In this document: positions 3,657 to 32,898 of the stretch, one piece after another
Position numbering within the stretch: position 1 is the stretch's first letter
Layout of the letters: each line of letters opens with the position of its first letter
Assembly (NCBI GenBank): GCA_000996025.1
Contig: LBYF01000001.1
Coordinates: 3,507-67,506, forward strand
DNA from: Parcubacteria group bacterium GW2011_GWA2_40_14
GTDB lineage: Bacteria; Patescibacteriota; Minisyncoccia; Phycocordibacterales; DATDWN01
DNA length: 64,000 bases
Direction of reading: 5' to 3'
Position numbers and translations under genes: made by a program
The notes under the pieces: generated by a model
The model's input: only the letters and a program-made list of their open reading frames with translations
What the model was told of the DNA's origin: nothing
Databases searched by the model: none

Positions 3657-4241
3657 TTACTCAAAATTCTTTAGATAGATATCTTTGTATCTTTGTTTAC
3701 ATTCCTCGATAACCTTGATAGCTTCATCTTTATCAAAAAAACCCTTGGTAATACCTGCACCAGGTTTTTTTAGGTATTTAATGTGTTCCCAGTAATAAGT
3801 GGTTTCTTTTTTGAATTGTTCGCCCAGGTCTTCAACTGACTGGATGTGGTCACTTCTTCGATCATCTGCAAGCACGGCGATTATTTTGTCGTCAACTTCT
3901 CCAGCATCTTCAAACTTCATAACTCCAATGATTCGAGCTTCAACTAAACACCCAGGTACAAGTGGTTCCATAACATTTACAATTTCAACATCAAGAGGAT
4001 CATTATCATAGTCCCAAGTTTGTGGGATTGCTCCGTAAGCAAAAGGGCAAGCAAGAGAGGAGTAACCAACCCGGTCAAGTTTTAACTGTCCTGATTCGGT
4101 TACGGTCTCGTATTTGTTTATAGTACCAGAATTAATCTCAACAATTGCGTTGACTCTATCTGATTGTTCGTCTACAAAAGCCGGTAGGACATGCAACAGA
4201 TTGAGCATGTATTTTGAAGGTTTGTGATTTATGTTTGCCAT
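3657..4241 (-). CDS. ppa: Inorganic pyrophosphatase (family I)
   Basis: The 194-aa ORF carries PPase-like motifs (PLDVEIV, IIAVLADD). Confidence 0.85.
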   Translation of the reverse strand: MANINHKPSKYMLNLLHVLPAFVDEQSDRVNAIVEINSGTINKYETVTESGQLKLDRVGYSSLACPFAYGAIPQTWDYDNDPLDVEIVNVMEPLVPGCLVEARIIGVMKFEDAGEVDDKIIAVLADDRRSDHIQSVEDLGEQFKKETTYYWEHIKYLKKPGAGITKGFFDKDEAIKVIEECKQRYKDIYLKNFE

Positions 4242-8785: not shown

Positions 8786-8790
8786 ACGAA

Positions 8791-8826
8791 GACTTCCAAA
8801 TCTGGCGCATTTCGTTGTTGGAAAGC
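8791..8826. repeat. Family-5 motif (GACTTCCAAATCTGGCG...GTTGTTGGA) immediately after the pilB stop
   Basis: The same words follow the tuf stop at 31221. Confidence 0.6.
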
Positions 8827-8883
8827 AAAAAATAAATCTTATACACAATTTTTGTGAAAATAAAATAAAATTTTGGTACAATA

Positions 8884-8967
8884 AACATACGAAATAACGA
8901 ATTAAAACACGAATGGCTACGGATTATTCGTTGCAATTCGTAGACCCATTCGTTACTTCGTATATTT
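8884..8967. repeat. Family-1 palindromic repeat; abuts the pilC start codon
   Basis: The copy ends ...cgttacttcgtatatttATG. Confidence 0.75.
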
Positions 8968-10182: not shown

Positions 10183-10643
10183 AATTAAATTATAAATCTG
10201 GGTTTACAATTTTTGAATTTCTCATAGCCATTTCTATCATGGCTCTTCTTGTGGCCATAGTATTTTCTGGTTTTATAAACTTGAGGAAACATCAGGCCTT
10301 AAAATTGGATACGGAAACTATCGCGGGAATATTACGAGAAGCTAGGAGTGAAACTCTGGCATCCAAAAATGGAACGCGATATGGAGTGCATTTCTCGGCT
10401 ACAAAAGTTACTCTCTTTGCCGGTTCTGTGTACAATCCAAGCGACCCCAATAACAAAGATTTTATGTTGAATGCAAGTGATGCAGTTTTTAACATCACTC
10501 TTGCCGGTGGAGGAAGCGATGTTATCTTTAATCGTTTGACCGGAGAAACATCGCAAAATGGCGTGATTACTCTTTCCTCCCCATCCACAGCACAAATAAA
10601 AACTGTTACAGTATACAAAACAGGAGTAGTTGAAAGTAATTAG
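10179..10643 (+). CDS. Prepilin-type N-terminal cleavage/methylation domain pseudopilin
   Basis: The N-terminus KSGFTIFEFLIAISIMALL is a class III signal (G|FTxxE plus a hydrophobic helix). Confidence 0.7.
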   Translation: MKLNYKSGFTIFEFLIAISIMALLVAIVFSGFINLRKHQALKLDTETIAGILREARSETLASKNGTRYGVHFSATKVTLFAGSVYNPSDPNNKDFMLNASDAVFNITLAGGGSDVIFNRLTGETSQNGVITLSSPSTAQIKTVTVYKTGVVESN

Positions 10644-10669
10644 GGAGTCTATAATACAATTTATATACA

Positions 10670-11158
10670 ATGTGGTCATACAATAAAAAAAACAATCGCG
10701 GTATGGCTCTAATAGAAATAGTCATAGGGGCCTCTATCATATCGGTCGGCATTTTGGCCATTTCTACCGCTTACAATACATATGTACAGCATGCTTTTGC
10801 AAACGAGAAAAATATCCAGGCGGCCTATATTTTGGAGGAGGGATTGGAAGCGGTAACACTCCTGCGTGACAAGGGGTGGAATGCAAATATCAAACTGCTT
10901 TCCACCACAACCACATATTATTTGACCTTGGTCCCGACCTACTGGGCTACCACAACCACACCACAATATATTGATGGAACATTTCTACGAAATATTGCTA
11001 TTACCGATGTAAAGCGCGACCTAAACGACCGTATCGCCACCGCAGGCACATATGACCCAAACACAAAACTAGTCACGGCGACAGTTTCCTATTTCCAAGG
11101 ACACGGCACGACCACGCGCTCCCTTTCAACTTATATAGCTAACATATATAACAACTGA
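10670..11158 (+). CDS. Pseudopilin (prepilin-type N-terminus)
   Basis: The N-terminus reads RGMALIEIVIGASIISVGILAI. Confidence 0.65.
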   Translation: MWSYNKKNNRGMALIEIVIGASIISVGILAISTAYNTYVQHAFANEKNIQAAYILEEGLEAVTLLRDKGWNANIKLLSTTTTYYLTLVPTYWATTTTPQYIDGTFLRNIAITDVKRDLNDRIATAGTYDPNTKLVTATVSYFQGHGTTTRSLSTYIANIYNN

Positions 11159-11160
11159 AC

Positions 11161-11670
11161 ATGAAAGTCCTTACATACAAATCAGGATATTCGCTTGTGG
11201 AAATGCTTATATATGTCTCTATTTTATCGGTCATTTCGTTTTTAATGGTTAGTACGGTGCTCTCTTTTATCGGCTCGTATAGACAGCTTGTGGCCTTGCG
11301 TATCGTGGAGCATTCGGGCATAGATGCTATGGAAAAAATGACTCGTGATATTCGGGCCGGTACGACAATTGATACAGTGAACAGCACATTTGGAACAAAT
11401 CCGGGTGTTTTGACTTTGATTACCACAGCAAACAATGTTTCCACTACCACAAAATTTTATCTTCAAAACGGTATTGTCAAAGTAGACATAAATGGAAGTT
11501 ATTTCGGTCCCATAACTTCCTCCACTGCATCCACAACCAGTATCGTATTTACAAAATTAAACAGCTCTATTTCTAACGCAGTAAAAATTGACATGACTGT
11601 ATCGGCTACAGTTGGCACGACAAGTAGAACGAAAACCTATCACTCCACGGTTATTTTAAAAGGACAATAG
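11161..11670 (+). CDS. Pseudopilin (prepilin-type N-terminus)
   Basis: The N-terminus reads KSGYSLVEMLIYVSILSVISFL. Confidence 0.65.
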   Translation: MKVLTYKSGYSLVEMLIYVSILSVISFLMVSTVLSFIGSYRQLVALRIVEHSGIDAMEKMTRDIRAGTTIDTVNSTFGTNPGVLTLITTANNVSTTTKFYLQNGIVKVDINGSYFGPITSSTASTTSIVFTKLNSSISNAVKIDMTVSATVGTTSRTKTYHSTVILKGQ

Positions 11671-11701
11671 GGAAAAATTTCTAATTTCTAATTTTTAAAT
11701 A

Positions 11702-13000
11702 ATGGAGCAGAAGCAAAAAATGAAATATGATAAGGGAGCGGCTATGTTAATAGCAGTGATTTTATTTTTATTTGTCTCCTCCACAATTGTTCTTGGCATT
11801 ACCGCGCCAATCTTAAAGCAAGCAAGAATTTCTACCGACCTCGTTCGTTCAAAAGAAAGTTATTATTACGCCGAAGGGGCGCTGGAAGATGCTTTTTACA
11901 GAATTAAAAATGGCAAGAGTATTAGTTCTGGAGATACAATAATTACAAACGGCTATACCACTACGATTACTATCACCACGGCATCTGGAGTTAAAACTAT
12001 TCTCGCCGTGTCAAATCGAGATGGCATTATTAGAAAAATGCAATCCCAAGTAGTTGCTGGTGTGGGAGCATCTTTTAATTACGGTGTTCAAGTCGGTCTT
12101 GGAGGTTTTGTTTTGGAAAATAGTTCAACCATAACGGGCAATATTTACTCTGGTGGTCCCATAACTGGTGCTGGAAATACCATAAGTGGCGATGCTGTTT
12201 CCTCCGGTTCCTCTGGACTTATAGATGATGTTCACATCACCAATTCAGCTTACGCTCATACCATACAAGATTCTGATGTAGATGCTAATGCTTATTATGT
12301 AATAAAAACTAACACTACTGTAGGTGGCACTTCTTTTCCAAATAGTCCAGACCAACCTGTTGCCAACCTACCCATTTCCGATGAGCAGATTGCTCTACTA
12401 GAAGCCGACGCGGTAGCCGGGGGAGTCATAAGTTCTCCTTGTCCTTACAAAATTACTTCTACAGTAACTTTGGGTCCAAAGAAAATTACATGTGATTTGG
12501 AGGTCAGTGGTAGCGCAGTTGTCACTCTTGCCGGTTCTGTTTGGGTAACGGGTGATATTGATATAAAAAACAGCGCCTTAATTAAAATATCTTCCAGTTT
12601 TCCGGAAAATACAAGTCCGGCTCTTATAGCTGACAATCCGGCCAACAGGTCTTCAGGCAGTAAGATATCTTTGCAAAACACCGCCACTTTCCAGGGCTCC
12701 GGAGGTTCCGGTAATTCAGACTCTTACATATTTGCCATATCTCAAAACAATAGCGCCGAAACAGGCGGTACAAATGACGCTATTTCTATGAAAAACAGCA
12801 GTGCCGGGGAGGTTGTGTTGTACGCTGGTCATGGACAAATAAGCATAGAGAACAGCGCTACATTAAGGCAAGTTACTGGCTACAAAATTAAAATGAAAAA
12901 CTCGGCCAATCTTATATATGAGGAAGGTCTGGCCGACACGCTTTTCTCTTCAGGACCTTCGGGTGGGTGGAATATTTCCACTTGGCAAGAAGTACAATAA
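11702..13000 (+). CDS. PilX-like large pilus-associated protein (N-terminal TM, Thr/Ser-rich beta-rich body)
   Basis: The N-terminal anchor is AAMLIAVILFLFVSSTIVLG, and the gene sits in the pilin operon. Confidence 0.5.
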   Translation: MEQKQKMKYDKGAAMLIAVILFLFVSSTIVLGITAPILKQARISTDLVRSKESYYYAEGALEDAFYRIKNGKSISSGDTIITNGYTTTITITTASGVKTILAVSNRDGIIRKMQSQVVAGVGASFNYGVQVGLGGFVLENSSTITGNIYSGGPITGAGNTISGDAVSSGSSGLIDDVHITNSAYAHTIQDSDVDANAYYVIKTNTTVGGTSFPNSPDQPVANLPISDEQIALLEADAVAGGVISSPCPYKITSTVTLGPKKITCDLEVSGSAVVTLAGSVWVTGDIDIKNSALIKISSSFPENTSPALIADNPANRSSGSKISLQNTATFQGSGGSGNSDSYIFAISQNNSAETGGTNDAISMKNSSAGEVVLYAGHGQISIENSATLRQVTGYKIKMKNSANLIYEEGLADTLFSSGPSGGWNISTWQEVQ

Positions 13001-18449: not shown

Positions 18450-18523
18450 TTTGCATATGTATTCAAGAAACTCAATTATAATTTTGGCACAGTATATTGT
18501 ACCAAAATAGAAATATTAAACTC

Positions 18524-19999
18524 ATGATTATTTCAAGTATTTTTGGTTTTATTTCAGGTATTGGCGTGGGTTCATTTTTTTATATCAATCTCGGAATTTT
18601 TCTTGCCCTCGGGTTTTTGATAATAATATTTTTTATATATAAAAATTTTGTTCCTGAGGAAAATCGTCGTGTTTTAGTTTTTATTTCCATTTTTCTTCTA
18701 GGAACACTCTGTGGATTAGCTAGAGTAACATTTTCCAATCTTTATACCACATCGCAACTCGGTTCATTTGTAGAACAGAAAATTTCTACGGAGGGTATTA
18801 TCGTCGGTGAGCCGGATGTTAGAGAAAACAATACAAAATTGACCGTGCGTTTGTCGCAAGTTAATTTTTTAAATAGCACTACTTCTGTTTCAGAGAAAAT
18901 ATTGGTAACCACATCTCTGTATCCAGAATTTCATTATGGCGACAAAGTTGCAATAGTTTTAACTTTGAAAGAGCCAAAAAATATAGATTCTGGCGATGGA
19001 CATGTCTTTGATTATAAAGGGTATCTGAAAGTCAGGGGAATTTGGTATACAGCCAGTTTTGTCAAAATAAGCCTTATTTCTAGGGGCCATGGCAGTTTGA
19101 TTAAAACGGGATTATTCAAAATAAAGCACGCATTTACGGCTTCATTAAATAGAGTATTGCCCGAGCCAGAATCCAGTCTCATGGCAGGATTACTTCTCGG
19201 TACAAAACAATCTTTGGGCAAAGATTTACTTCTGGAATTTCAGAAGACGGGTGTGTCACATATAATTGTGCTTTCTGGTTACAATATTGCCATTGTGGCA
19301 ACAAGCATTATGTCTTTTTTGAGTTTCTTGCCGAAAAGTTTTTCTTTCAGTTTTGGAATTGGCAGTATTATTTTGTTTACTATTCTCTCTGGAGGAAGCG
19401 CTTCAGCATGGCGAGCGGCTATTATGGTCATGGCCGCTCTTGTAGCCAAAAGATATAACCGCGATTACAAAGCCAGTCGCGTACTCGGCTTTGCTATCGT
19501 GCTTATGCTTGCTCCCAACCCACTCCTTCTTATTTTTGACCCATCATTTCAACTTTCAGTGTTGGCTACTATCGGAATTATTTTTGTTTCACCTCTTATT
19601 TTCCCATATTTTAAATGGGTAACAAAAAAATGGGAGTTCCGAGAAATTATTTCCACCACCATCGCCACTCAATTAACCGTCCTGCCATTTCTTATTTACA
19701 ATACAGGTCTTTTCTCTCTTGTTTCTCTGCCGGTGAACATTTTAATTCTTGCTACCATACCCACAACAATGTTTCTCGGTTTTATTACCGGTATCGCTGG
19801 TTTAATTTCACTTTATCTATCTTTCATCCCGGCATTTTTTGCTTATATTCTCCTCTGGTATCAGCTCACAGTCGTCCACATTGGAGCTAGCCTACCTTTC
19901 GGCTCAATTCTTCTCGCCACATTTTCTCCACTCGTTTTAATTTTCACCTACTTAATAATTTTCCTATTTTTGTATTTTCTAAAAAAGCAAACTATTTAA
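18524..19999 (+). CDS. comEC: ComEC/Rec2 competence membrane channel protein (N-terminal and transmembrane part only)
   Basis: It is polytopic with a ComEC-like core; no beta-lactamase domain lies in the same ORF. The track ORF begins at a TTG at 18497. Confidence 0.7.
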   Translation: MIISSIFGFISGIGVGSFFYINLGIFLALGFLIIIFFIYKNFVPEENRRVLVFISIFLLGTLCGLARVTFSNLYTTSQLGSFVEQKISTEGIIVGEPDVRENNTKLTVRLSQVNFLNSTTSVSEKILVTTSLYPEFHYGDKVAIVLTLKEPKNIDSGDGHVFDYKGYLKVRGIWYTASFVKISLISRGHGSLIKTGLFKIKHAFTASLNRVLPEPESSLMAGLLLGTKQSLGKDLLLEFQKTGVSHIIVLSGYNIAIVATSIMSFLSFLPKSFSFSFGIGSIILFTILSGGSASAWRAAIMVMAALVAKRYNRDYKASRVLGFAIVLMLAPNPLLLIFDPSFQLSVLATIGIIFVSPLIFPYFKWVTKKWEFREIISTTIATQLTVLPFLIYNTGLFSLVSLPVNILILATIPTTMFLGFITGIAGLISLYLSFIPAFFAYILLWYQLTVVHIGASLPFGSILLATFSPLVLIFTYLIIFLFLYFLKKQTI

Positions 20000-20441
20000 A
20001 GTATTTGCTGAAGTAGTCTTTACAGTACTCAAAACTATATTGAAATCCAGAATGTAATGGTTCTGGTAAGTTATCTATTTTAAACCAACCAAGCTCTTCA
20101 ATTTTATGAGGCTCATTATTTTTTACTTCATCTCAATTTACTTTGATGATAAACGGCATTGCAATCCAGTGAGTTTTTACACCGTTGAACATTCTAAAAA
20201 TATCATGTGCGGGAAGGCGCTCTGAAATCTCTCCTTTGCACCCGTATTCTTCCCGCACTTCTTGGAGAACATTTTCCTCGACTAAAAGATTAAATTCTAG
20301 TTTTCCTCCACCCGGATCCCATTTTCCTTGCTCATCCCTACACTGCAGACCTCTTTTGTGCATGAATAGATTTCCTTCTCCATCGTGGCAATAGAATGGA
20401 GTTGTGATACCAACATAGTCGTATCCAATTTTCATATCCAT
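19992..20441 (-). pseudogene. NUDIX hydrolase interrupted by an in-frame TGA at 20133-20135
   Basis: The upstream part has the Nudix box GGGKLEFNLLVEENVLQEVREEYG. After the TGA the same frame continues for 46 codons with NUDIX-like sequence (DEVKNNEPHKIEELGWFKIDNLPEPLHSGF...) to a TAG at 19992. Confidence 0.55.
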
Positions 20442-20443
20442 AC

Positions 20444-21046
20444 TTATTTTGCTACACTGTTAAAATTCTCCTCAACCTTCTTCCAATTCAGATTTGCAAA
20501 AAAATCTTCAACGTATTGTTTCTTGCCAGATGGTTGGTAGTCGGCGACAAAGGCGTGTTCCCACATATCTAAAGCGAGTATCGGAGTGCATCCAACGAGC
20601 TGGCCGAGCTGATGGTCTTCAATGTAGGCGTTCAGTAGTCTGTGTTCTTTTGTATCTAGGTAGAGCATTGCCCAGCCTACTCCGCGAGTCATGGCGATTG
20701 ACTTGAACCTCGCAAGCCAAGTGTCAAATGAACCCCATAGATAGACAATTGATTTATATAATTCTCCGTCTGGTGAAATGGGAGATGGTCCGTCGGACAG
20801 AGAATCAAAATAAACTTCATGATTTCGCATACCGTCATATTCAAATCCAAACCTTCTCTGTGTTTCGTTGATAATGATAATATATGTATCCGTCTGGCCG
20901 GATTTTGTGAACTCATCGATTTTTTCCAAAGCAAAATTGGTATGTTTGACATATCCCGCATAGAGCTTCAAATGTTCCTCAATTGTCTTGCTCGAAACTC
21001 CTTTTAATTCGGGGATATTAAATTTTTTCTCTTCAAATTGCATCAT
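20444..21046 (-). CDS. sodA: Fe/Mn superoxide dismutase
   Basis: The DMWEHAF motif and the N-terminal helical hairpin H-x-x-H are present. Confidence 0.9.
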   Translation of the reverse strand: MMQFEEKKFNIPELKGVSSKTIEEHLKLYAGYVKHTNFALEKIDEFTKSGQTDTYIIIINETQRRFGFEYDGMRNHEVYFDSLSDGPSPISPDGELYKSIVYLWGSFDTWLARFKSIAMTRGVGWAMLYLDTKEHRLLNAYIEDHQLGQLVGCTPILALDMWEHAFVADYQPSGKKQYVEDFFANLNWKKVEENFNSVAK

Positions 21047-21094
21047 AGTAGTTTTTAAATTTTAAATTAAAAATTTTCCTATATACTATAGCAT

Positions 21095-22006
21095 ATGAGG
21101 CAAATTTTTCTGAATGTTCGGACTTATCTACGATGGTATGCTCTCATTTTTCTAGTATTTTTTAGCGTCATTTTGTGGTTTGCTGTAATCCACGAAGACA
21201 GAAATGGGATTTTGACTTTTGCTGTTCTGGATGTTGGCCAAGGCGATGCCCTTTTTATTGAATCTCCCACGGGTACGCAGGTTTTGGTGGATGGCGGTCC
21301 CGGCAAAACCCTTATGCGAGAAATAACCGCTGTCATGCCATGGTATGACAGACATATAGATATGTTGGTTGTAACCAATCCGGACAAAGACCACTACGAG
21401 GGATTCATACCTCTTACGGGCAAATATTCTATTGATGTAGTGGTTGAACCGGGAACAGTATCGCTAACTTCGGAGTATGCAGTGTTGGAAAAAGAAATTG
21501 CTGTGAAGAAAATAACCAAAATTTTGGCCAGACGAGGACAAATAATAGACCTCGGTGGAGGAGCGTATTTGCAAATCCTTTTTCCTGACCGTGACGTTTC
21601 CGGATTATCCTCAAATAACGGCTCAATTGTTACGCGTTTAGTTTATGGCCATACATCCGTTATCTTACAGGGCGATTCTACTTCAAATATAGAGAATTAT
21701 CTAGTTACACTAGGGGAGGGTAACTTAAAAAGCACCATACTCAAAGCTGGTCACCACGGCTCGCGGACAAGTACATCGGAAGAATATGTTACAGCGGTTT
21801 CACCGCTGTGGACGGTTATTTCTTCTGGGATAAATAATAGTTACGGACATCCGCACAAAGAAACGTTGGACACTTTGAATAAATTAAAAATCCCCACGCT
21901 CGATACTTGTAATAATGGCAGAATCATTTTTGAATCGGATGGCAAAAGTTTTATTCTGAAAAATAAAAATCCTATTCTCGCGATATCTGGATGTGTTAAG
22001 AAATAA
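21095..22006 (+). CDS. Membrane-anchored metallo-beta-lactamase-fold protein resembling the ComEC C-terminal domain
   Basis: There is an N-terminal TM and a LDVGQGDA...H.GSRTS MBL-type motif set, as in the ComEC nuclease domain. Confidence 0.65.
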   Translation: MRQIFLNVRTYLRWYALIFLVFFSVILWFAVIHEDRNGILTFAVLDVGQGDALFIESPTGTQVLVDGGPGKTLMREITAVMPWYDRHIDMLVVTNPDKDHYEGFIPLTGKYSIDVVVEPGTVSLTSEYAVLEKEIAVKKITKILARRGQIIDLGGGAYLQILFPDRDVSGLSSNNGSIVTRLVYGHTSVILQGDSTSNIENYLVTLGEGNLKSTILKAGHHGSRTSTSEEYVTAVSPLWTVISSGINNSYGHPHKETLDTLNKLKIPTLDTCNNGRIIFESDGKSFILKNKNPILAISGCVKK

Positions 22007-24715: not shown

Positions 24716-26857
24716 ATGAATAGAGATTACACATTAGATAAAGTCAGAAATTTTGGAATCATAGCCCACATTGATGCGGGTAAAACAACCACATCTGAAC
24801 GCGTTTTATTCTATACAGGGATGACTCACAAAATCGGTGAGGTGCATGAAGGTGAAACGGTTACTGATTGGATGGATCAGGAGCGCGAGCGCGGAATTAC
24901 TATCACGGCTGCGGCCATTACCTGCTTCTGGAATAAAACGGATACAGAGAAAAAACCTGACAGCATGTATCGTTTCAATATTATTGACACTCCTGGTCAC
25001 ATTGATTTTACTGCAGAGGTTAAACGCTCGCTTCGCGTACTTGACGGGGCAGTAGTGGTTTTTGACGGTGTTGCCGGGGTTGAACCACAATCAGAAACTA
25101 ACTGGCGATATGCAGATGACGGAAATGTTCCAAGAATATGTTTTATAAACAAACTTGACCGAACAGGAGCTTCTTTTGAGCGTTCATACGCATCTATTTT
25201 AGACCGATTAAATAAAAATGCCGTACGTATGCAGATTCCGATGGGTTTGGAAGATAAGTTTGAGGGTGTTATTGACCTTTTAAAAATGAAAGCATACTTT
25301 TTTGAAGGAAATATGGGAATAACCATACGAGAGGAAGAAATTCCAGCTGAATTTCTAGAAGAAGCGAAAAAATACAGAGCAGAACTGATAGAGAAAATAG
25401 TGGAGCAGGACGACAAGATGATGGAGGCGTTTCTAGAAGGCAAGGAGCCATCGTTTGAGGATTTGAAAAAAACTTTGCGCAAAGCAACTCTGGCGGTAAA
25501 AATTATTCCTGTTTTTGCCGGTTCTGCACTGAAAAACAAAGGCGTTCAGCTTGTCCTTGACGCAGTGGTGGATTACCTGCCATCTCCTGTTGATATGCTT
25601 CCGGTTTGCGGACTTGACCCAAAAACAGGCGAGGAGATTTTCCGTAAGCCATCAGACGAAGAGCCATTTTCTGCTCTGGCTTTCAAACTCCAAAACGACC
25701 CGTTTGTTGGGCAGCTGACATTTTTCCGTGTCTACTCCGGAACGTTAGAAGCTGGAACATATATATACAACTCAACAACGGGCGAGAAGGAACGCCTTGG
25801 ACGTATTGTTCGCCTCCAGGCAGACAAACGTGAGGAGGTCAAAAAAGTTTTCTCTGGAGAAATCGCTGCGGCAGTGGGATTAAAGAGCGCAAAAACTTCT
25901 CACACTCTCTGCGATGAAGACAAACCGATTATTCTAGACCCAATTAAATTTGTGGACCCTGTCGTCTCTTTGCGTATTGAACCAAAAACAAAAGCTGACC
26001 AAGAAAAAATGGGTATGTCACTCAAAAAACTTGGAGACGAAGACCCCACCTTTGTTATTTCCTCAAACAGCGAAACAGGTGAAAGTATTATTTCCGGAAT
26101 GGGTGAATTGCATTTGGAAATTATGGTGGAACGTTTGAAACGAGAGTTTGGGGTAGAAGTAAATGTCGGCAAACCACAAGTGGCATATAGAGAAACAATT
26201 TTGGGTACTGCAGAAGCGGAACATAAATACATAAAACAAACAGGAGGCAAAGGACAATACGGACACGTCAAACTGACACTGAAGCCTTTGGAGAAAATTG
26301 AAGAAGGAAAAAAGATTCCAAAGAACACACATAGATACGAGGATTTTGAATTTATTGACTCAATAAAGGGAGGGGTTATTCCGCAAGAATTTATTCCGGC
26401 TGTAGAAAAAGGCGTACATGAGGCCATGGACCGGGGAATTGTGGCCGGATACAAAATGGTCAATGTATCCTGCGAGCTTACCTACGGTTCTTATCACGAC
26501 GTGGACTCATCGGAAATTGCATACAAAATTGCCGCTTCGCAGGCATTTCAAGATGCGGCAAAGAGAGCTCGTCCTGTTATCCTTGAGCCGATTATGAAAG
26601 TGGAAGCAATCATGCCGGAACAGTTCATGGGAGACATCACTGGTTCGCTTTCTGGAAAACGAGGTCAGATAGAAGGTATGGATGAACGTGGAATGCTCCG
26701 AGTTATACACGCCAAAGTGCCTCTGTCTGAAATGTTTGGCTATACCACAGACATCCGTTCAATGACCCAAGGTCGCGGTTCAGTCCAAATGGAATTTGAC
26801 CACTATGAGGTGGTGCCACCGAACGTGGCTACAACAATTATAGAATCAAGAAAATAA
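24716..26857 (+). CDS. fusA: Elongation factor G
   Basis: The 713-aa ORF has the G1 motif AHIDAGKTT and all five EF-G domains. Confidence 0.95.
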
Positions 26858-26867
26858 CATAAATTTT

Positions 26868-26935
26868 AAAAACTCTACAGACACTGGGTGTCTGTAGAGT
26901 TTTTTGCTAACACTGGGTGTTAGCAAGTTTTTAAT
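26868..26935 (+). terminator. Tandem pair of family-6 hairpins (both with an ACACTGGGTGT loop) after fusA
   Basis: Each of ctctacagacactgggtgtctgtagag and gctaacactgggtgttagc is followed by a T-run. Confidence 0.65.
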
Positions 26936-26969
26936 TGCGAGTAGTTTCTAAAGGCGATACAATATAAGT

Positions 26970-29528
26970 ATGAAAACTACTCCGGAGTATCCTACTCTCG
27001 CTATTTCATCTGAACTTGATGAAGTTTTAAATTCGAAAACACCTGCGCATTTTGATATTTTGCGTAAGCAAACTGAAACACCTCTGATTAGAGGAGGTGA
27101 AAAAGCTTTTTTGCAAGCAGCCAGAGAAAATCAGCCGACAGATTTACCTATTCCTTCCGATGAGGGAATTGTTCATTTTGAAAATGTAACAGTTTCTTCC
27201 TCTCCAGATAAAAATCGCCCTGAAAAAGTAAAAAATACGGAAGAAAAGAAAGAGGAAAAATTTCTTTTGCCTTCGCAAATATTGTTATCTCTGGATGAGA
27301 TGATAAAGAGTGGTCGCCTATTAAAATTCTTGAGATTTAGTGTGGCCGATGCAACTTCAAGTGACGACGTTGAATATTTTTTATTCATTGCCTGTGAAAA
27401 GGGTGATATTACAGTAGAAGAAAAACGAGAGATGCTCGCTTTTTTGAAATCGGAGACAACAGTTTCCTCCATCAGTGAAAAAGTGAAAAATCCTCCGAAT
27501 GCTGAAGGGGATTTAAAAATAGAAGAAGTGGTTGGAGAGACTTTACCGGAGCAGATAGAGGACACTCTTAGAGAGGCGCGTTCAGAATACGCAACACAAC
27601 TTATTGCTTGGAAAAATGAAATTCGGCAGAAAAAAGGAAAATTTGCAAAAGTTCTAGCAGACCTGGGTGGAGAACGGTCTCTGCCAGACCAAGAAAAGCC
27701 CCAAGAATTGAAAGATGCAGAAGAAGCTTATCTGGTAGCTAAAAAGAAAAAGAGACAAGTAATGTTTAGTCAGAGTGAAACTATGGTTGGAATGGAAGGC
27801 GACTACCAGTTCAATATGGAAATGATAAAAGAAGCCGAGAATGAATACATTTCTCTGCAAAGAAAAATTACAGAGTCACTGCCTCCTTTGGAAAAAGGCA
27901 TTGTCACAAAGGCCTTTGAAAAATGGGCCAAACTTCCTATGCCTGCACGGGTTGCTCTTAGTACGGCATTGCTTACAGGTACTTCTGTTGCTATTGGTTC
28001 TTTGGCACTCGGCGGCGCAGCGGCATATGGCGGATATCGTCTGGCACGCGGACTTGCTGGCGCCAGTGTCTCACAAGGAGTTGGTAAATTGGTAGACGGT
28101 ATATTTAGAAAAGGAAATGAAAGAATGAAGAGTAATATACTAGAGCAATATGGTACCAATATATCAGAAGAAAATTTTGAAAAGAAAGAGAAAGAAATGA
28201 TGCGAGCATTTGAGAAAGAAGAAAACGCTATAAAACGTCAGCGTTTATACAAAGCGACCGCGATGATAACTTCCGGTGGATTTGCAGCAGGAGTGCTTGG
28301 TAAAATTTCTTCTTTACAGAGCGCTGTGAATGCGCCAACTGTCGGAGGAGGAGTTCGTCTGTCGGAAAATATTCCAAAATCTGGGGTAATTGTATCGGAA
28401 CCTACGCCTCCTCCTGTGCCTGGACCCATGCTTGGACCAAAGGTGGTGGCAGAATTGCCGACAACGAAAGTGGAGCTTTCTCCGCGTGGATTTATTCAAG
28501 ATTTTGAAAATCTAAAAGCCAAGCTTGTAGAACAATATGGCGGGACGGATAAAGTGCCTGGGCAATACGAGCATTTTGTCAAAACTCCGGCTGTGAAACT
28601 GGCACAAGAGTTTGGTTTTTACGATGCAGAAAAAAATATGAGTGGAATAGGACTGAAAGGTGAGAGTTTGATACTGGACACAAAAGGCAACCTGGTCTAT
28701 CACCAGCTGGATGGTTCTGACCACATCATGATGGATACAAATACAGGAAGCGTGGAAGAAAAATTCAGTGGGAAAATGTTTACAAAGGATATTTCCGAAG
28801 AAGCAACTGCAGATAACGTTTCAGTTGAAACCAAGCCACAATCTGAAGTTTCTGTTGAACCGGAAGTAGTAGAAAATGCTCCACAGGCAACCGAGGCAGA
28901 AAATGTTCCTGAGATAAGTGAACCTGTTTCAGAGTCTGAAATGCCTGCTGAACCTCACGGAGCTGTTGAAAGCACTCCTATGGAAGCGGAAGCTAGTGTC
29001 TCCGAACCTCAGATTTTAAGGCATTTTCCAAGAAGCTTTGAAGAAACATCCATTAGTACACCTTCTGGAGTAACTCTCCACTATGACATTTCAACTGGCA
29101 AGAGCATTCCTGAATCGCTTCTTCTCAATGAGGTAGAATTTGCCCGTCGCTATAACTCTGGCGGAGCTGAAATATGGAAACTGGATGATAAATTTCAGAA
29201 TGGGAATGAATACAAAAATGTGCGCGCACTTTTAGCCCAATCAACCGAAGACCCAAGATATGTAAAACAGTTGGGCCGAATTGTGATGTCTGTGCCGTTT
29301 GAAGATGGCAAAATCCATATTGTTCAGGGTGTAGGCGGAGGCAATCCGAATGAAGCGACAGTTCTTTTGAATGGCAAAGAAGTTGCTAGAGGCACTCTGA
29401 CCCAAACCGGCCCGAAAATAGAATTAATCAAGGGACTCAAAGGAGGATTGCTTTTCCCTGACACGGCTTACGAGCGAGCATTCAAAAAAGTTTTACCTGT
29501 TATTAAGACATTAAAAATGAGAGAATAA
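26970..29528 (+). CDS. Large hypothetical membrane protein (852 aa; acidic, two Gly/Ala-rich TM helices)
   Basis: The long ORF has no internal stops and TM segments at ARVALSTALLTGTSVAIGSLALGGAAAYGGY and ATAMITSGGFAAGVLG. No family was recognised. It lies between fusA and tuf. Confidence 0.6.
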   Translation: MKTTPEYPTLAISSELDEVLNSKTPAHFDILRKQTETPLIRGGEKAFLQAARENQPTDLPIPSDEGIVHFENVTVSSSPDKNRPEKVKNTEEKKEEKFLLPSQILLSLDEMIKSGRLLKFLRFSVADATSSDDVEYFLFIACEKGDITVEEKREMLAFLKSETTVSSISEKVKNPPNAEGDLKIEEVVGETLPEQIEDTLREARSEYATQLIAWKNEIRQKKGKFAKVLADLGGERSLPDQEKPQELKDAEEAYLVAKKKKRQVMFSQSETMVGMEGDYQFNMEMIKEAENEYISLQRKITESLPPLEKGIVTKAFEKWAKLPMPARVALSTALLTGTSVAIGSLALGGAAAYGGYRLARGLAGASVSQGVGKLVDGIFRKGNERMKSNILEQYGTNISEENFEKKEKEMMRAFEKEENAIKRQRLYKATAMITSGGFAAGVLGKISSLQSAVNAPTVGGGVRLSENIPKSGVIVSEPTPPPVPGPMLGPKVVAELPTTKVELSPRGFIQDFENLKAKLVEQYGGTDKVPGQYEHFVKTPAVKLAQEFGFYDAEKNMSGIGLKGESLILDTKGNLVYHQLDGSDHIMMDTNTGSVEEKFSGKMFTKDISEEATADNVSVETKPQSEVSVEPEVVENAPQATEAENVPEISEPVSESEMPAEPHGAVESTPMEAEASVSEPQILRHFPRSFEETSISTPSGVTLHYDISTGKSIPESLLLNEVEFARRYNSGGAEIWKLDDKFQNGNEYKNVRALLAQSTEDPRYVKQLGRIVMSVPFEDGKIHIVQGVGGGNPNEATVLLNGKEVARGTLTQTGPKIELIKGLKGGLLFPDTAYERAFKKVLPVIKTLKMRE

Positions 29529-29537
29529 ACATATTGT

Positions 29538-29837
29538 ATGAGCAACATTTTATCAAAGGATATAATAAAAGAATGGGGACTTGGTACTTTACCAGAAGCA
29601 AAACAATTGGAGATTGTAGAGCGTATGGGACGTCTCTTGTACCAGGCTTTACTTGTACGAGCTCTGGATATTCTCTCTGAAAAAGAGCAGGTGGAGTTTG
29701 ATTTGCTTTTGGACGAAGATACTACAACACCTCAAGATGTTTTAAAATTTCTGGAGTCAAAAATTCCAACATTTGACATTCTCCTTGCCGAAGAAAAACA
29801 AAAATTGAAAGAAGATTTACTTGTGCCCGTGGCGTAA
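29538..29837 (+). CDS. Hypothetical 99-aa protein, coupled to the preceding ORF by a 9-nt spacer
   Basis: This is an ORF-only call. The sequence is acidic and helical. Confidence 0.4.
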   Translation: MSNILSKDIIKEWGLGTLPEAKQLEIVERMGRLLYQALLVRALDILSEKEQVEFDLLLDEDTTTPQDVLKFLESKIPTFDILLAEEKQKLKEDLLVPVA

Positions 29838-29838
29838 T

Positions 29839-29867
29839 TTGACATTGGAAGTCATTTTGTATAGTAT
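29839..29867 (+). promoter_or_regulatory. Sigma70-type promoter for tuf (TTGACA - 17 nt - TAGTAT)
   Basis: The -35 and -10 hexamers and the spacing are a perfect consensus. Confidence 0.6.
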
Positions 29868-29940
29868 ATTAAACATCGCGTTTTCGTGATTTTTTAATTT
29901 TATAAACAATTTATTAAATAACCACACGCTTTCAGATTTG

Positions 29941-29993
29941 GATGCCGAGCACCAGAAAATTCATTGGTGCTTCGGCGCCAAATGTGGAAGCTC
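29941..29993 (+). promoter_or_regulatory. tuf 5' leader: hairpin (gccgagcacc...ggtgcttcggc) followed by the family-5 motif GCGCCAAATGTGGAAGCTC
   Basis: The motif is complementary to the tuf trailer motif at 31221-31240. Confidence 0.5.
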
Positions 29994-30016
29994 TGTGACT
30001 AACATACAAAAATACA

Positions 30017-31222
30017 ATGGCAGAATCAGCAAAATTTGATAGAAGCAAGCCCCACATCAATGTGGGTACTATTGGTCACGTTGACCACGGCAAGACTACA
30101 TTAACAGCAGCTATTTTGGCTGTGCTTGGAAGAGCTGGCGCGGGATATTCATCCAGACTAAAAGGAGTTGACCAAATCGACTCCGCACCTGAAGAAAAAG
30201 CTCGTGGAATCACCATCGCTTTATCCCACAACGAGTATGAGACACCTGCCCGTCACTATGCTCACGTGGATGCTCCTGGTCACGCCGACTATATTAAAAA
30301 CATGATTACTGGCGCCGCACAGATGGACGGCGCAGTCCTTGTGGTTGCCGCAACAGACGGTGTCATGCCTCAAACACGAGAGCATGTTCTCCTTGCAAAA
30401 CAAGTTGGTGTGCCAAAGATAATCGTATTTCTAAACAAATGCGATATGGTTCCAGACAAAGAGCTTATTGATTTGGTGGAGGAAGAAGTTCGAGAACTTC
30501 TAACAAAACAAGGTTTTGATGGCGCGGGAGCTCCTGTAATCCGAGGTTCAGGATTGAAAGCTCTTGAGTCAAAAGACAATACAGACGAATGGGCAATGAA
30601 AGTTCTGGACTTGGCTAGTGCATTGGACACATATTTCCCAATTCCACAGCGAGATTTGGACAAGCCATTCCTCATGCCAGTTGAAGACATTTTCTCTATT
30701 GAAGGACGAGGTACTGTAGTAACAGGCCGTATTGAAAGAGGCGTTGTTAAAGTTGGCGAGGAAATAGAATGTATTGGATTGAAAGACACACAGAAATATA
30801 CAGTTACTGGTATTGAAATGTTCAACAAGTCTCTTGACCAAGGTCAGGCAGGAGACAACGCTGGAATCTTGCTCCGTGGTGCCAAGAAAGAAGAAATTCA
30901 CCGAGGTCAGGTGCTGTCAAAGCCAAAGTCTGTTACTCCTCACACAGAATTTACAGCAGAGGTTTATATCTTGAAGAAAGAAGAAGGTGGACGACACACA
31001 CCTTTCTTTACTGGTTACAAACCGCAGTTTTACATCCGAACAACAGATGTTACAGGTGACGTTACTCTAAACGAAGGTGTTGAGATGGTCATGCCTGGAG
31101 ATACAGTCACTTTCAAAGTAAAGCTCGTTGCTCCGGTTGCGCTTGAAGACAATACGCGATTTGCTATACGCGAGGGAGGAAAGACTGTTGGCGCTGGGGT
31201 CGTTACCAAGATCATAGCGTAA
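30017..31222 (+). CDS. tuf: Elongation factor Tu
   Basis: The G1 motif [10 protein letters not shown] and the rest of the 401-aa ORF are canonical EF-Tu. Confidence 0.95.
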
Positions 31223-31925: not shown

Positions 31926-32291
31926 TTGATATATAAAACTGTCGGAAAAGTTTATCGTCCTATTTTGAAAGAATATGTTACTTTTAATTCTAAAGGTTTT
32001 TATCACTTACGATACGATACTCACGAGAAAGCGAGAAGGGTGAAAGAACAAATATACAAATTTAATTTGCTTCCACTTATTATTCCCGCAATTAAAAACG
32101 CAAAAAATGTGTTTGATTATAAAAAAGAGCAGTATTCCAAACTCCTTGGCAAATATTACGAAATATGGGAACTTCGAGAAACTGTTGGAGGGAAAAACCC
32201 AACTTCGCTATCTGTGATTTTGAGAAGGATCGGGAACGGAAATATTACATTTCTTAGTGTGTATGACAGAAAACCAAAAATGAAAAAATAG
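31926..32291 (+). CDS. Hypothetical protein; the C-terminal half weakly resembles RelE/ParE-fold toxins
   Basis: YEIWELRETVGG...SVILRRIGNGNITFLSVYDRK echoes the RelE pattern (ELR..YRIIY..V.IL.IGHRK). The match is weak. Confidence 0.3.
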   Translation: MIYKTVGKVYRPILKEYVTFNSKGFYHLRYDTHEKARRVKEQIYKFNLLPLIIPAIKNAKNVFDYKKEQYSKLLGKYYEIWELRETVGGKNPTSLSVILRRIGNGNITFLSVYDRKPKMKK

Positions 32292-32475: not shown

Positions 32476-32898
32476 ATGGTAACGAAAGAAGCTCCTACAA
32501 AGAAAGTGGCGGGAAAGACGGCGGTCAAAAAGACTGCGGCTAAAGTTGTTGCCAAACCTAAAGTTGCAAAGGCGCCCGCAAAGCAAGAAACAGTTTCCAA
32601 ACTGCGTATTCGGGTACAGGCCTACGAATACAAGATTCTTGATTTGTCAGTCAAGCAAATCATAGATACGGCTATTCGTTATGATGCTGTAGTGCAAGGA
32701 CCTATTCCTCTTCCGACAAATATAAAAAAATACACTGTCAATCGTTCGGCATTTATTTTTAAAAACGCCCGCGAGCAGTTTGAAATGCGAATTCACAAAC
32801 GACTGATTGATATTTTGAACCCTACTCCAAAGATAATGGAGGCACTGACGAATCTCTCACTTCCGAGTGGTGTAAATATTGATGTAAAAATTATTTAA
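32476..32898 (+). CDS. rpsJ: 30S ribosomal protein S10 with a 40-aa Lys/Ala-rich N-terminal extension
   Basis: The S10 core begins KLRIRVQAYEYKILD. The N-terminus KKVAGKTAVKKTAAKVVAKPKVAKAPAK is histone H1-like. Confidence 0.9.
   Translation: MVTKEAPTKKVAGKTAVKKTAAKVVAKPKVAKAPAKQETVSKLRIRVQAYEYKILDLSVKQIIDTAIRYDAVVQGPIPLPTNIKKYTVNRSAFIFKNAREQFEMRIHKRLIDILNPTPKIMEALTNLSLPSGVNIDVKII

What the first reader, a model, noticed from the sequence alone, without database searches (positions are those of the whole stretch)
26970..29837. 852-aa acidic membrane protein plus a 99-aa partner inserted inside the str operon between fusA and tuf
rpsL-rpsG-fusA-tuf is among the most conserved gene strings in bacteria. 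Here fusA ends with tandem terminators, and an 852-aa ORF follows with two Gly/Ala-rich TM helices, long Glu/Lys-rich and PE/PQ-rich low-complexity regions, and a C-terminal globular part. A tightly coupled 99-aa ORF comes next, and tuf gets its own perfect-consensus promoter. No known domain is recognisable. This is a candidate novel lineage-specific membrane or surface module.
Basis: seen in the sequence. Interest (0 to 1): 0.65.

Follow-up and report, generated by a model that had tools for sequence, protein, structure and literature searches.

The report
Conserved unknown gene pair between fusA/tuf
Between the genes for elongation factors EF-G and EF-Tu, a group of tiny uncultured bacteria (Zambryskibacteria and relatives) always carries its own two-gene unit: a large, fast-evolving scaffold protein and a small, very conserved acidic protein (DUF5663). 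Both genes are real, their function is unknown, and their conserved parts most likely sit inside the cell rather than on its surface.

Summary
Both ORFs are real: 852 aa at 26970-29528 and 99 aa at 29538-29837. They sit between fusA and tuf in a Ca. Zambryskibacteria genome. This is a clade-wide cassette, not a one-off insertion. All 45 species-level genome loci found with the small protein have fusA, then a homolog of the large protein (232-1438 aa), then DUF5663, then tuf. The large family has at least 577 clusters at 50% identity in public data.

The cassette is its own transcription unit. A terminator follows fusA, then a conserved promoter whose -10 ends 6 nt before the ATG (a leaderless mRNA). 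The two ORFs are tightly coupled. A conserved tuf promoter, a hairpin and a structured leader follow.

The 99-aa protein belongs to Pfam DUF5663. It is an acidic five-helix bundle and is nearly as conserved as S7/S10. The large protein matches no known family or fold.

The "membrane/surface" reading is weak. The hydrophobic segments are marginal, and short homologs lack them and have no signal peptide. Rare fusions (J-like, deformylase, TPR) are to cytoplasmic-type modules.

Best reading: a cytoplasmic modular scaffold whose basic C-terminal domain binds acidic DUF5663. A role in translation or protein biogenesis is inferred, not shown.

The parts
24716..26857 (+). fusA (EF-G, 713 aa), upstream neighbour
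   Evidence: ORF; homologs carry the EF-G Pfam domains; median 89% identity across loci.
26869..26932 (+). Tandem intrinsic terminators of fusA: a 35-nt hairpin and a 23-nt hairpin, each followed by a T-run
   Evidence: MFE -40 kcal/mol, z = -7.24; a hairpin plus T-run follows fusA in 26 of 32 related loci.
26935..26963 (+). Promoter of the cassette: -35 TTGCGA, 17 nt, -10 TACAAT. The -10 ends 6 nt before the ATG, which implies a leaderless mRNA.
   Evidence: site; the same -35/-10 is found in 31 of 39 loci. The -10-to-ATG spacing is exactly 6 nt in 19 of them. No transcript data.
26970..29528 (+). 852-aa modular scaffold protein from an unnamed family (KKR46188.1, 'hypothetical protein')
   Evidence: No Pfam, NCBIfam, PDB, PADLOC or PHROG match.
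27258..27455 (+). N-terminal four-helix module (aa 97-162). It is kept in short homologs and duplicated in several long ones.
   Evidence: pLDDT 71-81, helices 102-161. HMM positions about 17-152 match once to three times per protein.
27537..27869 (+). Conserved charged helical region (aa 190-300). Motif: L..AR..YA...WKN..R.KK..F.K...DLG..K..P....EL..AE.AY..AKK
27945..28013 (+). Hydrophobic Gly/Ala-rich segment 1 (aa 326-348). Marginal as a TM helix, and possibly a membrane-associating helix.
   Evidence: KD19 1.58; family median 1.68, with 68% at or above 1.6; dG19 +2.3 in the window and median +2.5 in the family, with K/R-rich flanks on both sides.
28251..28313 (+). Hydrophobic Gly/Ala-rich segment 2 (aa 428-448). 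Unlikely to be a TM helix.
   Evidence: median KD19 1.27, with 7% at or above 1.6; dG19 +6.0 in the window and median +5.5 in the family.
28461..28763 (+). Middle alpha/beta domain (aa 498-598). Conserved motif VELSSKGFI...LAKEFGFYDP...GLKGE. Absent from short homologs.
   Evidence: pLDDT 73-83..
28764..29039 (+). Acidic Pro/Glu-rich disordered spacer (aa 599-690), variable in length and sequence
   Evidence: pI 4.15, charge -15; pLDDT below 50; low occupancy and identity.
29040..29525 (+). C-terminal beta-rich domain (aa 691-852). Its last ~85 aa are the best-conserved and the only basic part of the protein. Proposed docking site for DUF5663.
   Evidence: pLDDT 71-86, five strands plus a helix in aa 771-846; retained in nearly all homologs (absent from L039, L048 and the deformylase fusion P0230); net positive in 86% of members, median pI 9.0.
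29538..29837 (+). 99-aa acidic five-helix protein of the DUF5663 (PF18908) family. Starts 9 nt after the scaffold gene's stop codon.
   Evidence: AF2 pLDDT 86.8; pI 4.26-4.60 across the family, and gap of 10 nt or less in 30 of 44 loci; median 68% identity.
29839..29867 (+). tuf promoter: TTGACA, 17 nt, TAGTAT (10 of 12 consensus positions)
   Evidence: TTGACn-N16-18-TAnnnT (17-nt spacer in 34 of the 36) lies within 100 nt after the DUF5663 stop in 36 of 47 loci.
29875..29898 (+). Short hairpin (ATCGCG..CGTGAT) plus T-run just downstream of the tuf promoter. Probably the terminator of the cassette, the 5' stem-loop of tuf mRNA, or both.
   Evidence: an equivalent hairpin plus T-run is present in 33 loci.
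29923..29997 (+). Long hairpin in the tuf 5' leader. This is a shortened version of the 'form A' leader found in related loci.
   Evidence: z = -7.35; 25 of 34 consensus pairs show compensatory changes in 11 loci; no Rfam match.
30017..31222 (+). tuf (EF-Tu, 401 aa), downstream neighbour
   Evidence: EF-Tu Pfam domains in homologs; median 91% identity.

Best explanation
This is a clade-specific housekeeping cassette of Zambryskibacteria and related Paceibacteria (CPR). It is fixed between fusA and tuf but expressed as its own unit.

Transcription (inferred from sequence): fusA transcription stops at an intrinsic terminator. A conserved sigma-70-type promoter then starts a leaderless bicistronic mRNA at or near the ATG of the large gene.

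Gene 1 encodes a fast-evolving modular scaffold. Its conserved core is an N-terminal helical module plus a small basic beta-rich C-terminal domain, and the core has no signal peptide. Most members, including the window's, also carry three optional parts: a Gly/Ala-rich hydrophobic helical hairpin region that may tether the protein to the inner face of the membrane, a middle alpha/beta domain, and an acidic Pro/Glu-rich disordered spacer.

Gene 2 is translationally coupled to gene 1. It encodes DUF5663, a slowly evolving, strongly acidic five-helix bundle.

Inferred, not shown: DUF5663 docks on the basic C-terminal domain. The complex then acts in the cytoplasm as an adaptor or hub, possibly membrane-proximal, that is linked to translation or the handling of newly made proteins.
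For: Shown by tool results:
- Every one of the 45 species-level loci has the order fusA, scaffold homolog, DUF5663, tuf wherever the flanks are long enough. Each locus has one DUF5663 copy.
- The family has 577 clusters at 50% identity.
- Own transcription signals: a terminator after fusA in 26 of 32 loci; a conserved -35/-10 ending 6-9 nt before the ATG in 30 of 39 loci; and a conserved tuf promoter plus hairpin after DUF5663 in 33-36 of 47 loci.
- Coupling: the stop-start gap is 10 nt or less in 30 of 44 loci and zero or overlapping in 11.
- Cytoplasmic core: short homologs have no hydrophobic segment and no signal peptide. The only fused domains are J-like x3, deformylase x1 and TPR x1.
- Charge complementarity across the family: the C-terminal ~85 aa are net positive in 86% of members (median pI 9.0), and DUF5663 always has pI 4.26-4.60.
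- DUF5663 evolves almost as slowly as ribosomal proteins. Median identity to the window is 68%, against 79% for S7, 82% for S10 and 33% for the scaffold.
- Codon usage of both genes lies in the ribosomal/EF range.
- DUF5663 folds confidently (pLDDT 86.8) into five helices.

Inferred: the physical interaction, the membrane tethering, and the link to translation or protein biogenesis.
Against: - There is no direct evidence that the two proteins interact. A co-folding prediction could not be run.
- The translation link rests on gene position, conservation rate and rare fusions. The cassette has its own terminator and promoter, so position may simply reflect frozen synteny.
- Other unrelated ORFs have inserted into the same interval in some loci: L002, L008, L026 and L050.
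- All three J-like domains lack the canonical HPD motif (HSD, HSD, NTD), so they may not activate DnaK.
- The deformylase fusion sits in a rearranged locus without DUF5663 on a short contig.
- The CAI signal is weak, because a neighbouring unrelated small ORF scores as high.
- The scaffold model has low overall confidence (pLDDT 54.8), and no fold match was found.
- Topology was judged with simple scales, not a trained predictor.
Confidence: 0.45

Rival explanations
1. The cassette is a cytoplasmic scaffold pair with a function unrelated to translation. Candidates are a polarity, division or attachment-organelle hub, analogous to acidic proline-rich cytoskeletal proteins of Mycoplasma terminal organelles or to HubP/FimV/ZipA-type landmark proteins. 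Under this view it sits between fusA and tuf only because that region rarely rearranges.
For: - The architecture fits a hub: conserved small terminal domains, a variable acidic Pro/Glu-rich spacer, an optional membrane-associating segment and duplicated N-terminal modules.
- The scaffold evolves fast, at a median 33% identity.
- The unit has its own promoter and terminator, so co-transcription with EF genes is not required.
- The fusA-tuf interval accepts other insertions.
- The comparison with Mycoplasma proteins and HubP/ZipA rests on my own knowledge and was not tested.
Against: - It does not explain why the position is invariant in all 45 genomes.
- It does not explain why DUF5663 is conserved at near-ribosomal-protein level.
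Confidence: 0.27
2. One reading: the large protein is an integral membrane or surface protein with two TM helices, and its Pro/Glu-rich linker and C-terminal globular part are displayed outside the cell. DUF5663 would be a cytoplasmic partner or chaperone.
For: - Segment 1 reaches KD19 of 1.6 or more in 68% of family members.
- Pro/Glu-rich spacers resemble wall-spanning regions of Gram-positive surface proteins (my own knowledge).
- The flank after segment 2 is poor in Lys/Arg: 1.1 against 6.1 before it. This would fit an 'outside' C-terminal half if segment 2 alone crossed the membrane.
Against: - Segment 2 is very weak, with median dG19 of +5.5. Segment 1 has Lys/Arg-rich flanks on both sides.
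- Short homologs keep the same C-terminal domain with no TM segment and no signal peptide. That domain therefore works in the cytoplasm in those organisms.
- A C-terminal deformylase fusion and J-like/TPR fusions are cytoplasmic modules.
- There is no N-terminal signal peptide (sequence).
- There is no real linkage to pilus genes.
Confidence: 0.15
3. The pair is a mobile, selfish or defence element (toxin-antitoxin, defence system or prophage remnant) that has landed in the str region.
For: - It is a two-gene, tightly coupled cassette with its own promoter.
- The large partner evolves fast.
Against: - It is single-copy, always at the same site in all 45 genomes, with none elsewhere in the window.
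- GC content and codon usage are native.
- There is no meaningful PADLOC or PHROG hit (only a chance-level Cas7_IIIg hit for the 99-aa protein, E 0.031) and no match in 50,697 phage records.
- The small partner is far too conserved for an antitoxin.
Confidence: 0.03

Closest known systems
Pfam DUF5663 (PF18908), an uncharacterised small protein family of Patescibacteria
   Same: The 99-aa protein aligns end to end with the profile: residues 9-92 against positions 1-82 of 84. Homologs at 66-84% identity carry precomputed PF18908 hits and are named 'DUF5663 domain-containing protein' by NCBI. In a direct scan, 97 of 121 subfamily members match the profile.
   Different: The window copy scores below Pfam's gathering threshold (17.6 against 23.7 bits), so this str-locus subfamily is a divergent branch. 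The family has no known function, and no paper in the searchable library mentions it.
Canonical bacterial str operon (rpsL-rpsG-fusA-tuf)
   Same: The same four genes occur in the same order and on the same strand, followed by the S10 operon.
   Different: fusA ends at a terminator. A two-gene unit with its own promoter is interposed. tuf has its own promoter and a long structured leader. The string is therefore split into at least three transcription units, as judged from sequence signals.
Membrane-anchored or scaffold-type J-domain co-chaperones (e.g. DjlA; Mycoplasma TopJ/MG200 with a J domain plus an acidic proline-rich region). Comparison from my own knowledge.
   Same: Three divergent family members carry a Pfam-significant DnaJ-type domain (best E = 6.9e-15) together with acidic Pro-rich low-complexity regions.
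   Different: The window protein has no J domain. The three J-like domains have HSD, HSD and NTD in place of the catalytic HPD. No homology to DjlA or TopJ was tested or seen.
Hub or tether proteins with a disordered P/Q/E-rich linker and a small C-terminal binding domain (ZipA, FimV/HubP). Comparison from my own knowledge.
   Same: The design logic is similar: a possible membrane-associating element, a long variable acidic or proline-rich spacer, and a small conserved C-terminal globular domain that could hold a partner.
   Different: The hydrophobic element is internal, marginal and dispensable. No fold or sequence similarity was found.

Membership tests
Pfam DUF5663 (PF18908), for the 99-aa protein | Score at or above Pfam's gathering threshold (23.7 bits) | tested here: not met
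   17.6 bits, E = 0.006 for the window copy.
Pfam DUF5663 (PF18908), for the 99-aa protein | Full-length collinear match to the profile, and close homologs that are accepted members | tested here: met
   residues 9-92 against profile positions 1-82 of 84; most homologs at 66-84% identity carry PF18908; 97 of 121 members match, best E = 5.9e-7.
Integral membrane protein with two TM helices, for the 852-aa protein | Two segments hydrophobic enough to span the bilayer (KD19 of 1.6 or more; apparent dG near or below 0-1 kcal/mol) | tested here: not met
   In the window, segment 1 has KD 1.58 and dG +2.3, and segment 2 has dG +6.0. Family medians are +2.5 and +5.5. Only simple scales were used (the dG scale from memory), not a trained predictor.
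Integral membrane protein with two TM helices, for the 852-aa protein | Charge distribution consistent with an in-out-in hairpin (loop poor in Lys/Arg) | tested here: not met
   The loop flanks are rich in Lys/Arg: 2.3 after segment 1 and 6.1 before segment 2. The N-flank of segment 1 has 4.5.
Integral membrane protein with two TM helices, for the 852-aa protein | Hydrophobic segments conserved in all family members | tested here: not met
   six short homologs in the same genomic slot have none (one, L036, shows a single weak hydropathy peak).
Secreted or surface protein | N-terminal signal peptide | tested here: not met
   sequences. MKTTPEYPTLAISSELDEV... and MSNILSKDIIKEWGLG... have no hydrophobic h-region. 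This was judged by eye, and no SignalP run was available.
J-domain (Hsp40) co-chaperones | Pfam DnaJ domain present | tested here: not met
   none in the window protein. Only 3 of 143 family representatives have one.
J-domain (Hsp40) co-chaperones | Catalytic HPD tripeptide | tested here: not met
   the three J-like domains have HSD, HSD and NTD.
Co-transcribed member of the str operon | No terminator or promoter between it and fusA or tuf | tested here: not met
   terminator after fusA; own promoter; tuf promoter plus hairpin. These are sequence signals only, and transcript data are needed.
Anti-phage defence system, toxin-antitoxin or phage gene | Match to PADLOC or PHROG models or to phage genomes; variable genomic location | tested here: not met
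   no significant match (PADLOC gave one chance-level Cas7_IIIg hit, E 0.031); fixed location in all loci.
Any family with a solved structure | Significant sequence or fold similarity | tested here: not met

The most novel reading that the evidence does not exclude
DUF5663 and its scaffold could be a previously unrecognised, clade-specific component of the translation or nascent-protein machinery of Paceibacteria. One possibility is a partly membrane-tethered adaptor that binds ribosomes, EF-Tu, EF-G or chaperones. That would explain three things: its fixed place between the two elongation-factor genes, the near-ribosomal-protein conservation and codon usage of DUF5663, and the rare fusions to J-like, TPR and deformylase modules.
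Probability: 0.2. Interest if true: 0.8.

Novelty: categorically new. Interest (0 to 1): 0.5.

Why it matters
CPR/Patescibacteria make up a large share of bacterial diversity. They have reduced genomes and unusual ribosomes, and about half of their genes have no assigned function. This gene pair is present in every genome of a whole clade and always sits between the EF-G and EF-Tu genes. It has a conserved leaderless promoter, and its small partner is conserved almost like a ribosomal protein. Those are the features of a core function, not an accessory one.

If the pair turns out to act on translation or on newly made proteins, it would be a new lineage-specific part of a machinery usually regarded as universal. 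If it is instead a cytoskeletal or attachment hub, it would bear on how these episymbionts organise their cells.

Either way, the analysis gives DUF5663 a defined partner, a defined locus and testable hypotheses. 'Categorically new' here means unassignable to any known family or system by sequence or fold. It does not mean that a new mechanism has been demonstrated.

Tried and rejected
- **Profile libraries.** Pfam, NCBIfam, PADLOC and PHROGs scans of both proteins gave only the sub-threshold DUF5663 hit, plus chance-level hits for the 99-aa protein (NCBIfam APH(3'')-Ib, E 0.041; PADLOC Cas7_IIIg, E 0.031).
- **Permissive Pfam scans.** Scans of 41 scaffold homologs and 121 DUF5663 members at E up to 1 found no recurring known domain. 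The only recurring extras were weak DUF6165, Sdh5 and AadA_C hits for DUF5663.
- **Second homology search.** A profile of 8 homologs added nothing, probably because low-complexity words saturated the candidate list.
- **PDB sequence searches.** Profiles of both families found nothing.
- **Structure prediction with a deeper alignment.** The scaffold had to be folded with 8 sequences, giving pLDDT 54.8.
- **Idea: the N-terminal module or another scaffold domain is a DUF5663 paralog or an internal duplication.** Rejected. HHalign probabilities were 1.4% or less.
- **Idea: link to type IV pili via contig L004.** Rejected as a probable assembly chimera at a repeated hairpin.
- **Idea: extra ORFs in the fusA-tuf interval of other loci are family paralogs.** Rejected. 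The two tested, L026 (1064 aa) and L002 (388 aa), have no solved relatives.
- **Rfam.** Scans of the operon region and of 5 related loci found no known RNA family for the leaders.
- **Literature.** Searches for DUF5663, PF18908, fusA/tuf/Parcubacteria, str operon/CPR and Zambryskibacteria found nothing relevant.
- **A count that failed.** My count of 'members lacking segment 1' based on hmmalign was invalid, because the forced alignment fills those columns. The statement about short forms rests on direct hydropathy.
Full report
**What is there**

The window carries rpsL, rpsG and fusA (24716-26857). Next come an 852-aa ORF (26970-29528) and a 99-aa ORF (29538-29837), followed by tuf (30017-31222), rpsJ and rplC. 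All are on the + strand. GC content across the two ORFs (0.39-0.44) matches the neighbouring genes.

The exact 852-aa sequence is deposited as 'hypothetical protein' from Candidatus Zambryskibacteria / Parcubacteria MAGs (KKR46188.1, OHB09224.1). It occurs on several independently assembled contigs.

**Not a private insertion**

A search with the 99-aa protein found 228 relatives. The 120 that were listed are 66-84% identical. Most carry PF18908 (DUF5663) and come from Paceibacteria/Parcubacteria. The 852-aa protein found only 9 relatives by the word-indexed search, at 37-50% identity. An exhaustive profile search found 577 clusters at 50% identity with E of 1e-3 or better, and 393 with E of 1e-10 or better.

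I scanned one genome per species with a DUF5663 alignment and obtained 45 loci from Zambryskibacteria, Paceibacterota and Minisyncoccia MAGs. Wherever a flank is long enough, the order is the same: fusA, a homolog of the large protein (232-1438 aa), DUF5663, then tuf. Profile searches confirm that even the most divergent upstream ORFs belong to the family. Each locus has exactly one DUF5663 copy, and there is no second copy in the window.

A few loci have extra unrelated ORFs in the interval: L002/L003, L008, L026 and L050.

**Expression signals**

- *After fusA.* The two hairpins with T-runs after fusA are real (MFE -40 kcal/mol, z = -7.2). A hairpin plus T-run follows fusA in 26 of 32 related loci.
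- *Cassette promoter.* Upstream of the large gene sits a conserved promoter: -35 TTGCnn, 17 nt, -10 TAyAAT. Its -10 ends 6 nt before the ATG. The arrangement is found in 31 of 39 loci, and the spacing is exactly 6 nt in 19 of them. Where my ORF caller over-extended the N-terminus, the in-frame peptide 'YN..M' is this TACAAT-N6-ATG read as protein. The implication is a leaderless mRNA, but this is inferred and I have no transcript data. In the window only 3 of 46 genes have a full -35/-10 at that distance.
- *Coupling.* The 99-aa gene starts 9 nt after the large gene's stop. Across loci the gap is 10 nt or less in 30 of 44 and zero or overlapping in 11.
- *tuf promoter.* Within 100 nt after the DUF5663 stop (mostly within the first 50 nt) there is TTGACn-N16-18-TAnnnT (17-nt spacer in 34 of the 36) in 36 of 47 loci. 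A short hairpin plus T-run follows in 33. In the window the promoter is TTGACA-17-TAGTAT, which matches 10 of 12 positions and is not a perfect consensus.
- *tuf leader.* tuf is preceded by a long structured leader (z = -7.35).

Judged by these signals, the classical str string is split into at least three units, and the pair forms one of them.

**The small protein**

It is a DUF5663 member. The window copy aligns full-length to the profile but scores below Pfam's threshold (17.6 against 23.7 bits). Of 121 subfamily members, 97 match the profile.

It is strongly conserved. In a 121-sequence alignment, 18 columns are invariant. Median identity to the window across loci is 68%. The comparison values are 79% for S7, 82% for S10, 89% for EF-G, 91% for EF-Tu and only 33% for the large protein.

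**The large protein**

It has no match in Pfam, NCBIfam, PADLOC or PHROGs, and no match in PDB by sequence. The AF2 model is poor overall (pLDDT 54.8) but contains moderately confident modules.

| Module | Residues | Notes |
|---|---|---|
| Four-helix N module | 97-162 | Kept in short homologs; duplicated in some long ones |
| Charged helical region | 190-300 | Conserved sequence motif |
| Two long helices | 357-450 | Bracketed by the two hydrophobic segments |
| Alpha/beta middle domain | 498-598 | Absent from short homologs |
| Disordered acidic Pro/Glu spacer | 599-690 | Variable in length and sequence |
| Beta-rich C-terminal domain | 691-852 | Five strands plus a helix in aa 771-846 |

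Conservation mapping agrees with this layout. The most conserved stretch is aa 781-840. Fold searches gave only generic helical matches or nothing.

Short homologs (232-513 aa) keep the N module and the last ~90 aa. They lack the hydrophobic region proper, the middle domain and much of the spacer. Long homologs duplicate the N module.

**Is it a membrane or surface protein?**

The evidence is against the surface reading, and only weakly for any membrane association.

- *Hydrophobicity.* Segment 1 (aa 326-348) has KD19 of 1.58 in the window. The family median is 1.68, and 68% of members reach 1.6. Segment 2 has a median of 1.27.
- *Insertion energy.* On a Hessa-type scale, recalled from memory, the best 19-residue windows have median apparent dG of +2.5 for segment 1 and +5.5 kcal/mol for segment 2.
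- *Flanks.* Lys/Arg-rich flanks lie on both sides of segment 1 and before segment 2. This contradicts an in-out-in hairpin.
- *Short homologs.* Six of them, in the same genomic slot, have no hydrophobic segment (one, L036, has a single weak peak) and no signal peptide. They retain the C-terminal domain.
- *Fusions.* Among 143 representatives scanned, the only fused domains are J-like (three mutually divergent proteins), peptide deformylase (one, at the C-terminus) and TPR (one). All are cytoplasmic module types.

The conserved core therefore most likely works in the cytoplasm. The Gly/Ala-rich segments may tether the long forms to the inner face of the membrane, or they may be buried in a helical bundle. 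I could not run a trained topology predictor.

**How it most likely works**

Three observations point to the scaffold's C-terminal domain holding DUF5663. The two genes are translationally coupled. They co-occur in every complete locus examined; the one exception seen is the rearranged deformylase-fusion contig L051. The charges are complementary across the whole family: the C-terminal ~85 aa are the only basic module (net positive in 86% of members, median pI 9.0) in an otherwise acidic protein, and DUF5663 is always acidic. The interaction itself is inferred.

What the complex does is not established. Four points favour a link to translation or protein biogenesis:
- the invariant position between the two elongation-factor genes
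- the near-ribosomal-protein conservation of DUF5663
- codon usage in the ribosomal/EF range (CAI 0.760 and 0.728, against a median of 0.708 for other genes)
- the J-like, TPR and deformylase fusions

Each point has a weakness:
- The pair has its own promoter and terminator.
- A neighbouring unknown ORF has an equally high CAI.
- The J-like domains lack HPD.
- The deformylase fusion sits in a rearranged locus without DUF5663.

A translation-unrelated hub function (polarity, division or attachment) is therefore a serious rival. A mobile or defence origin is very unlikely.

**Comparison with known systems**

The 99-aa protein can be filed under DUF5663, as a divergent subfamily. That name carries no functional information. 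The large protein cannot be filed anywhere. It works like a modular hub or tether in its design logic, comparable to ZipA, HubP or Mycoplasma J-domain/APR proteins. That comparison comes from my own knowledge, and no membership feature of those families was met. The locus is a variant of the str operon in which an autonomous unit is interposed.

**Verdict**

The 'membrane/surface' part does not.
- Novelty: the pair cannot be assigned to any known family or system. The proteins themselves are already in public databases as hypothetical or DUF entries.
- Interest is moderate at 0.5. This is a clade-wide, probably core, two-gene unit with a concrete set of decisive tests, but so far there is no demonstrated unusual mechanism.

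Noticed in passing
window 29923-29997 (tuf 5' leader); equivalents in L012, L014, L016, L027, L029, L031, L034, L045, L048, L050: There is a long structured RNA immediately upstream of tuf ('form A', about 130 nt in most loci and shortened to about 75 nt in the window). The window fold has z = -7.35. In an 11-sequence alignment, 25 of 34 consensus pairs show compensatory changes. It has no Rfam match. It may be a cis-regulatory leader of tuf.
   Followed up: partly
L006, L012, L017, L020, L021, L023, L027, L028, L032, L033, L035-L040, L043-L046 (100-200 nt upstream of tuf); not present in the window: A second conserved leader hairpin ('form B') has the form GAAGTTCCCAAAAyTCAG...TCTCGAAC...TGAGTTTTTGGArTTTC, followed by an invariant CAAAATGGCA. 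In the alignment, 92.8% of cells are paired, against 66% or less when partners are slid. Two pairs show clean compensatory switches (CG/UA 12:8 and AU/GC 15:5). Some loci carry both forms. It has no Rfam match.
   Followed up: partly
window 29839-29898: The tuf promoter lies directly after the DUF5663 stop codon. A short TCGC..GCGA-type hairpin plus T-run sits just downstream of its -10. This layout is conserved in 33 of 47 loci. The same hairpin could terminate the upstream cassette and also form the 5' stem-loop of tuf mRNA.
   Followed up: partly
L004 versus L005 (around position 7835 in both): The same 1064-aa family protein (P0009) is preceded by fusA in one contig (L005). In the other contig (L004) it is preceded by a type IV pilus cluster (pilM...pilB, response regulator, pilT, pilC). 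The contigs are identical to the right of position 7835 and diverge at a partly similar terminator-like hairpin. This is probably an assembly chimera or a recombination at a repeated hairpin, and I do not take it as evidence for a pilus link.
   Followed up: partly
window 3657-4241 (-), 13022, 21095, 22508, 23433: Several other first-in-unit genes also have a -10-like hexamer ending 5-8 nt before their ATG. These include ppa, tpiA, the 303-aa ORF at 21095, the M50 peptidase gene and rpsL. Few genes show a Shine-Dalgarno sequence. Leaderless initiation may be common for promoter-proximal genes in this organism.
   Followed up: partly
window 31926-32291 (+): A 121-aa ORF with a TTG start lies in the 1.25-kb gap between tuf and rpsJ. 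It has no Pfam or PHROG match but very high CAI (0.773). Related loci have different small ORFs in this gap. It is unclear whether this is a real gene.
   Followed up: no
window 32476-32898 (rpsJ): Ribosomal protein S10 carries an N-terminal Lys/Ala-rich extension of about 35 aa (MVTKEAPTKKVAGKTAVKKTAAKVVAKPKVAKAPAKQ...). In many related loci the tblastn match to the window's S10 begins only at residue ~30-40, so the extension varies by lineage.
   Followed up: no
L002/L003 11056-12222; L008 10566-11336; L026 4987-8181; L050 10634-11942; L011 5608-6744: The fusA-tuf interval accepts further lineage-specific ORFs of 129 to 1064 aa. These are not paralogs of the scaffold family. The two tested, from L026 (1064 aa) and L002 (388 aa), have no relatives with solved structures.
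   Followed up: partly
L051 2420-6193 (P0230); L052 1492-5577 (P0180): These are rare architectural variants of the scaffold in the same post-fusA slot. One has its middle and C-terminal domains replaced by a peptide deformylase domain and is followed by an Fpg/Nei-like ORF (judged by eye, not scanned) instead of DUF5663. The other has an N-terminal J-like domain with HSD in place of HPD.
   Followed up: partly
window 7016-13000 and 18497-22006: A type IV pilus/competence cluster lies 14 kb upstream of the finding: pilB at 7016-8785, pilC at 8968-10182 and three prepilin-like genes at 10179-11670. ComEC is at 18497-19999. A separate 303-aa ORF at 21095-22006 has homologs with weak metallo-beta-lactamase hits. 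It looks like the ComEC C-terminal domain split off and separated by a superoxide dismutase gene on the opposite strand.
   Followed up: no
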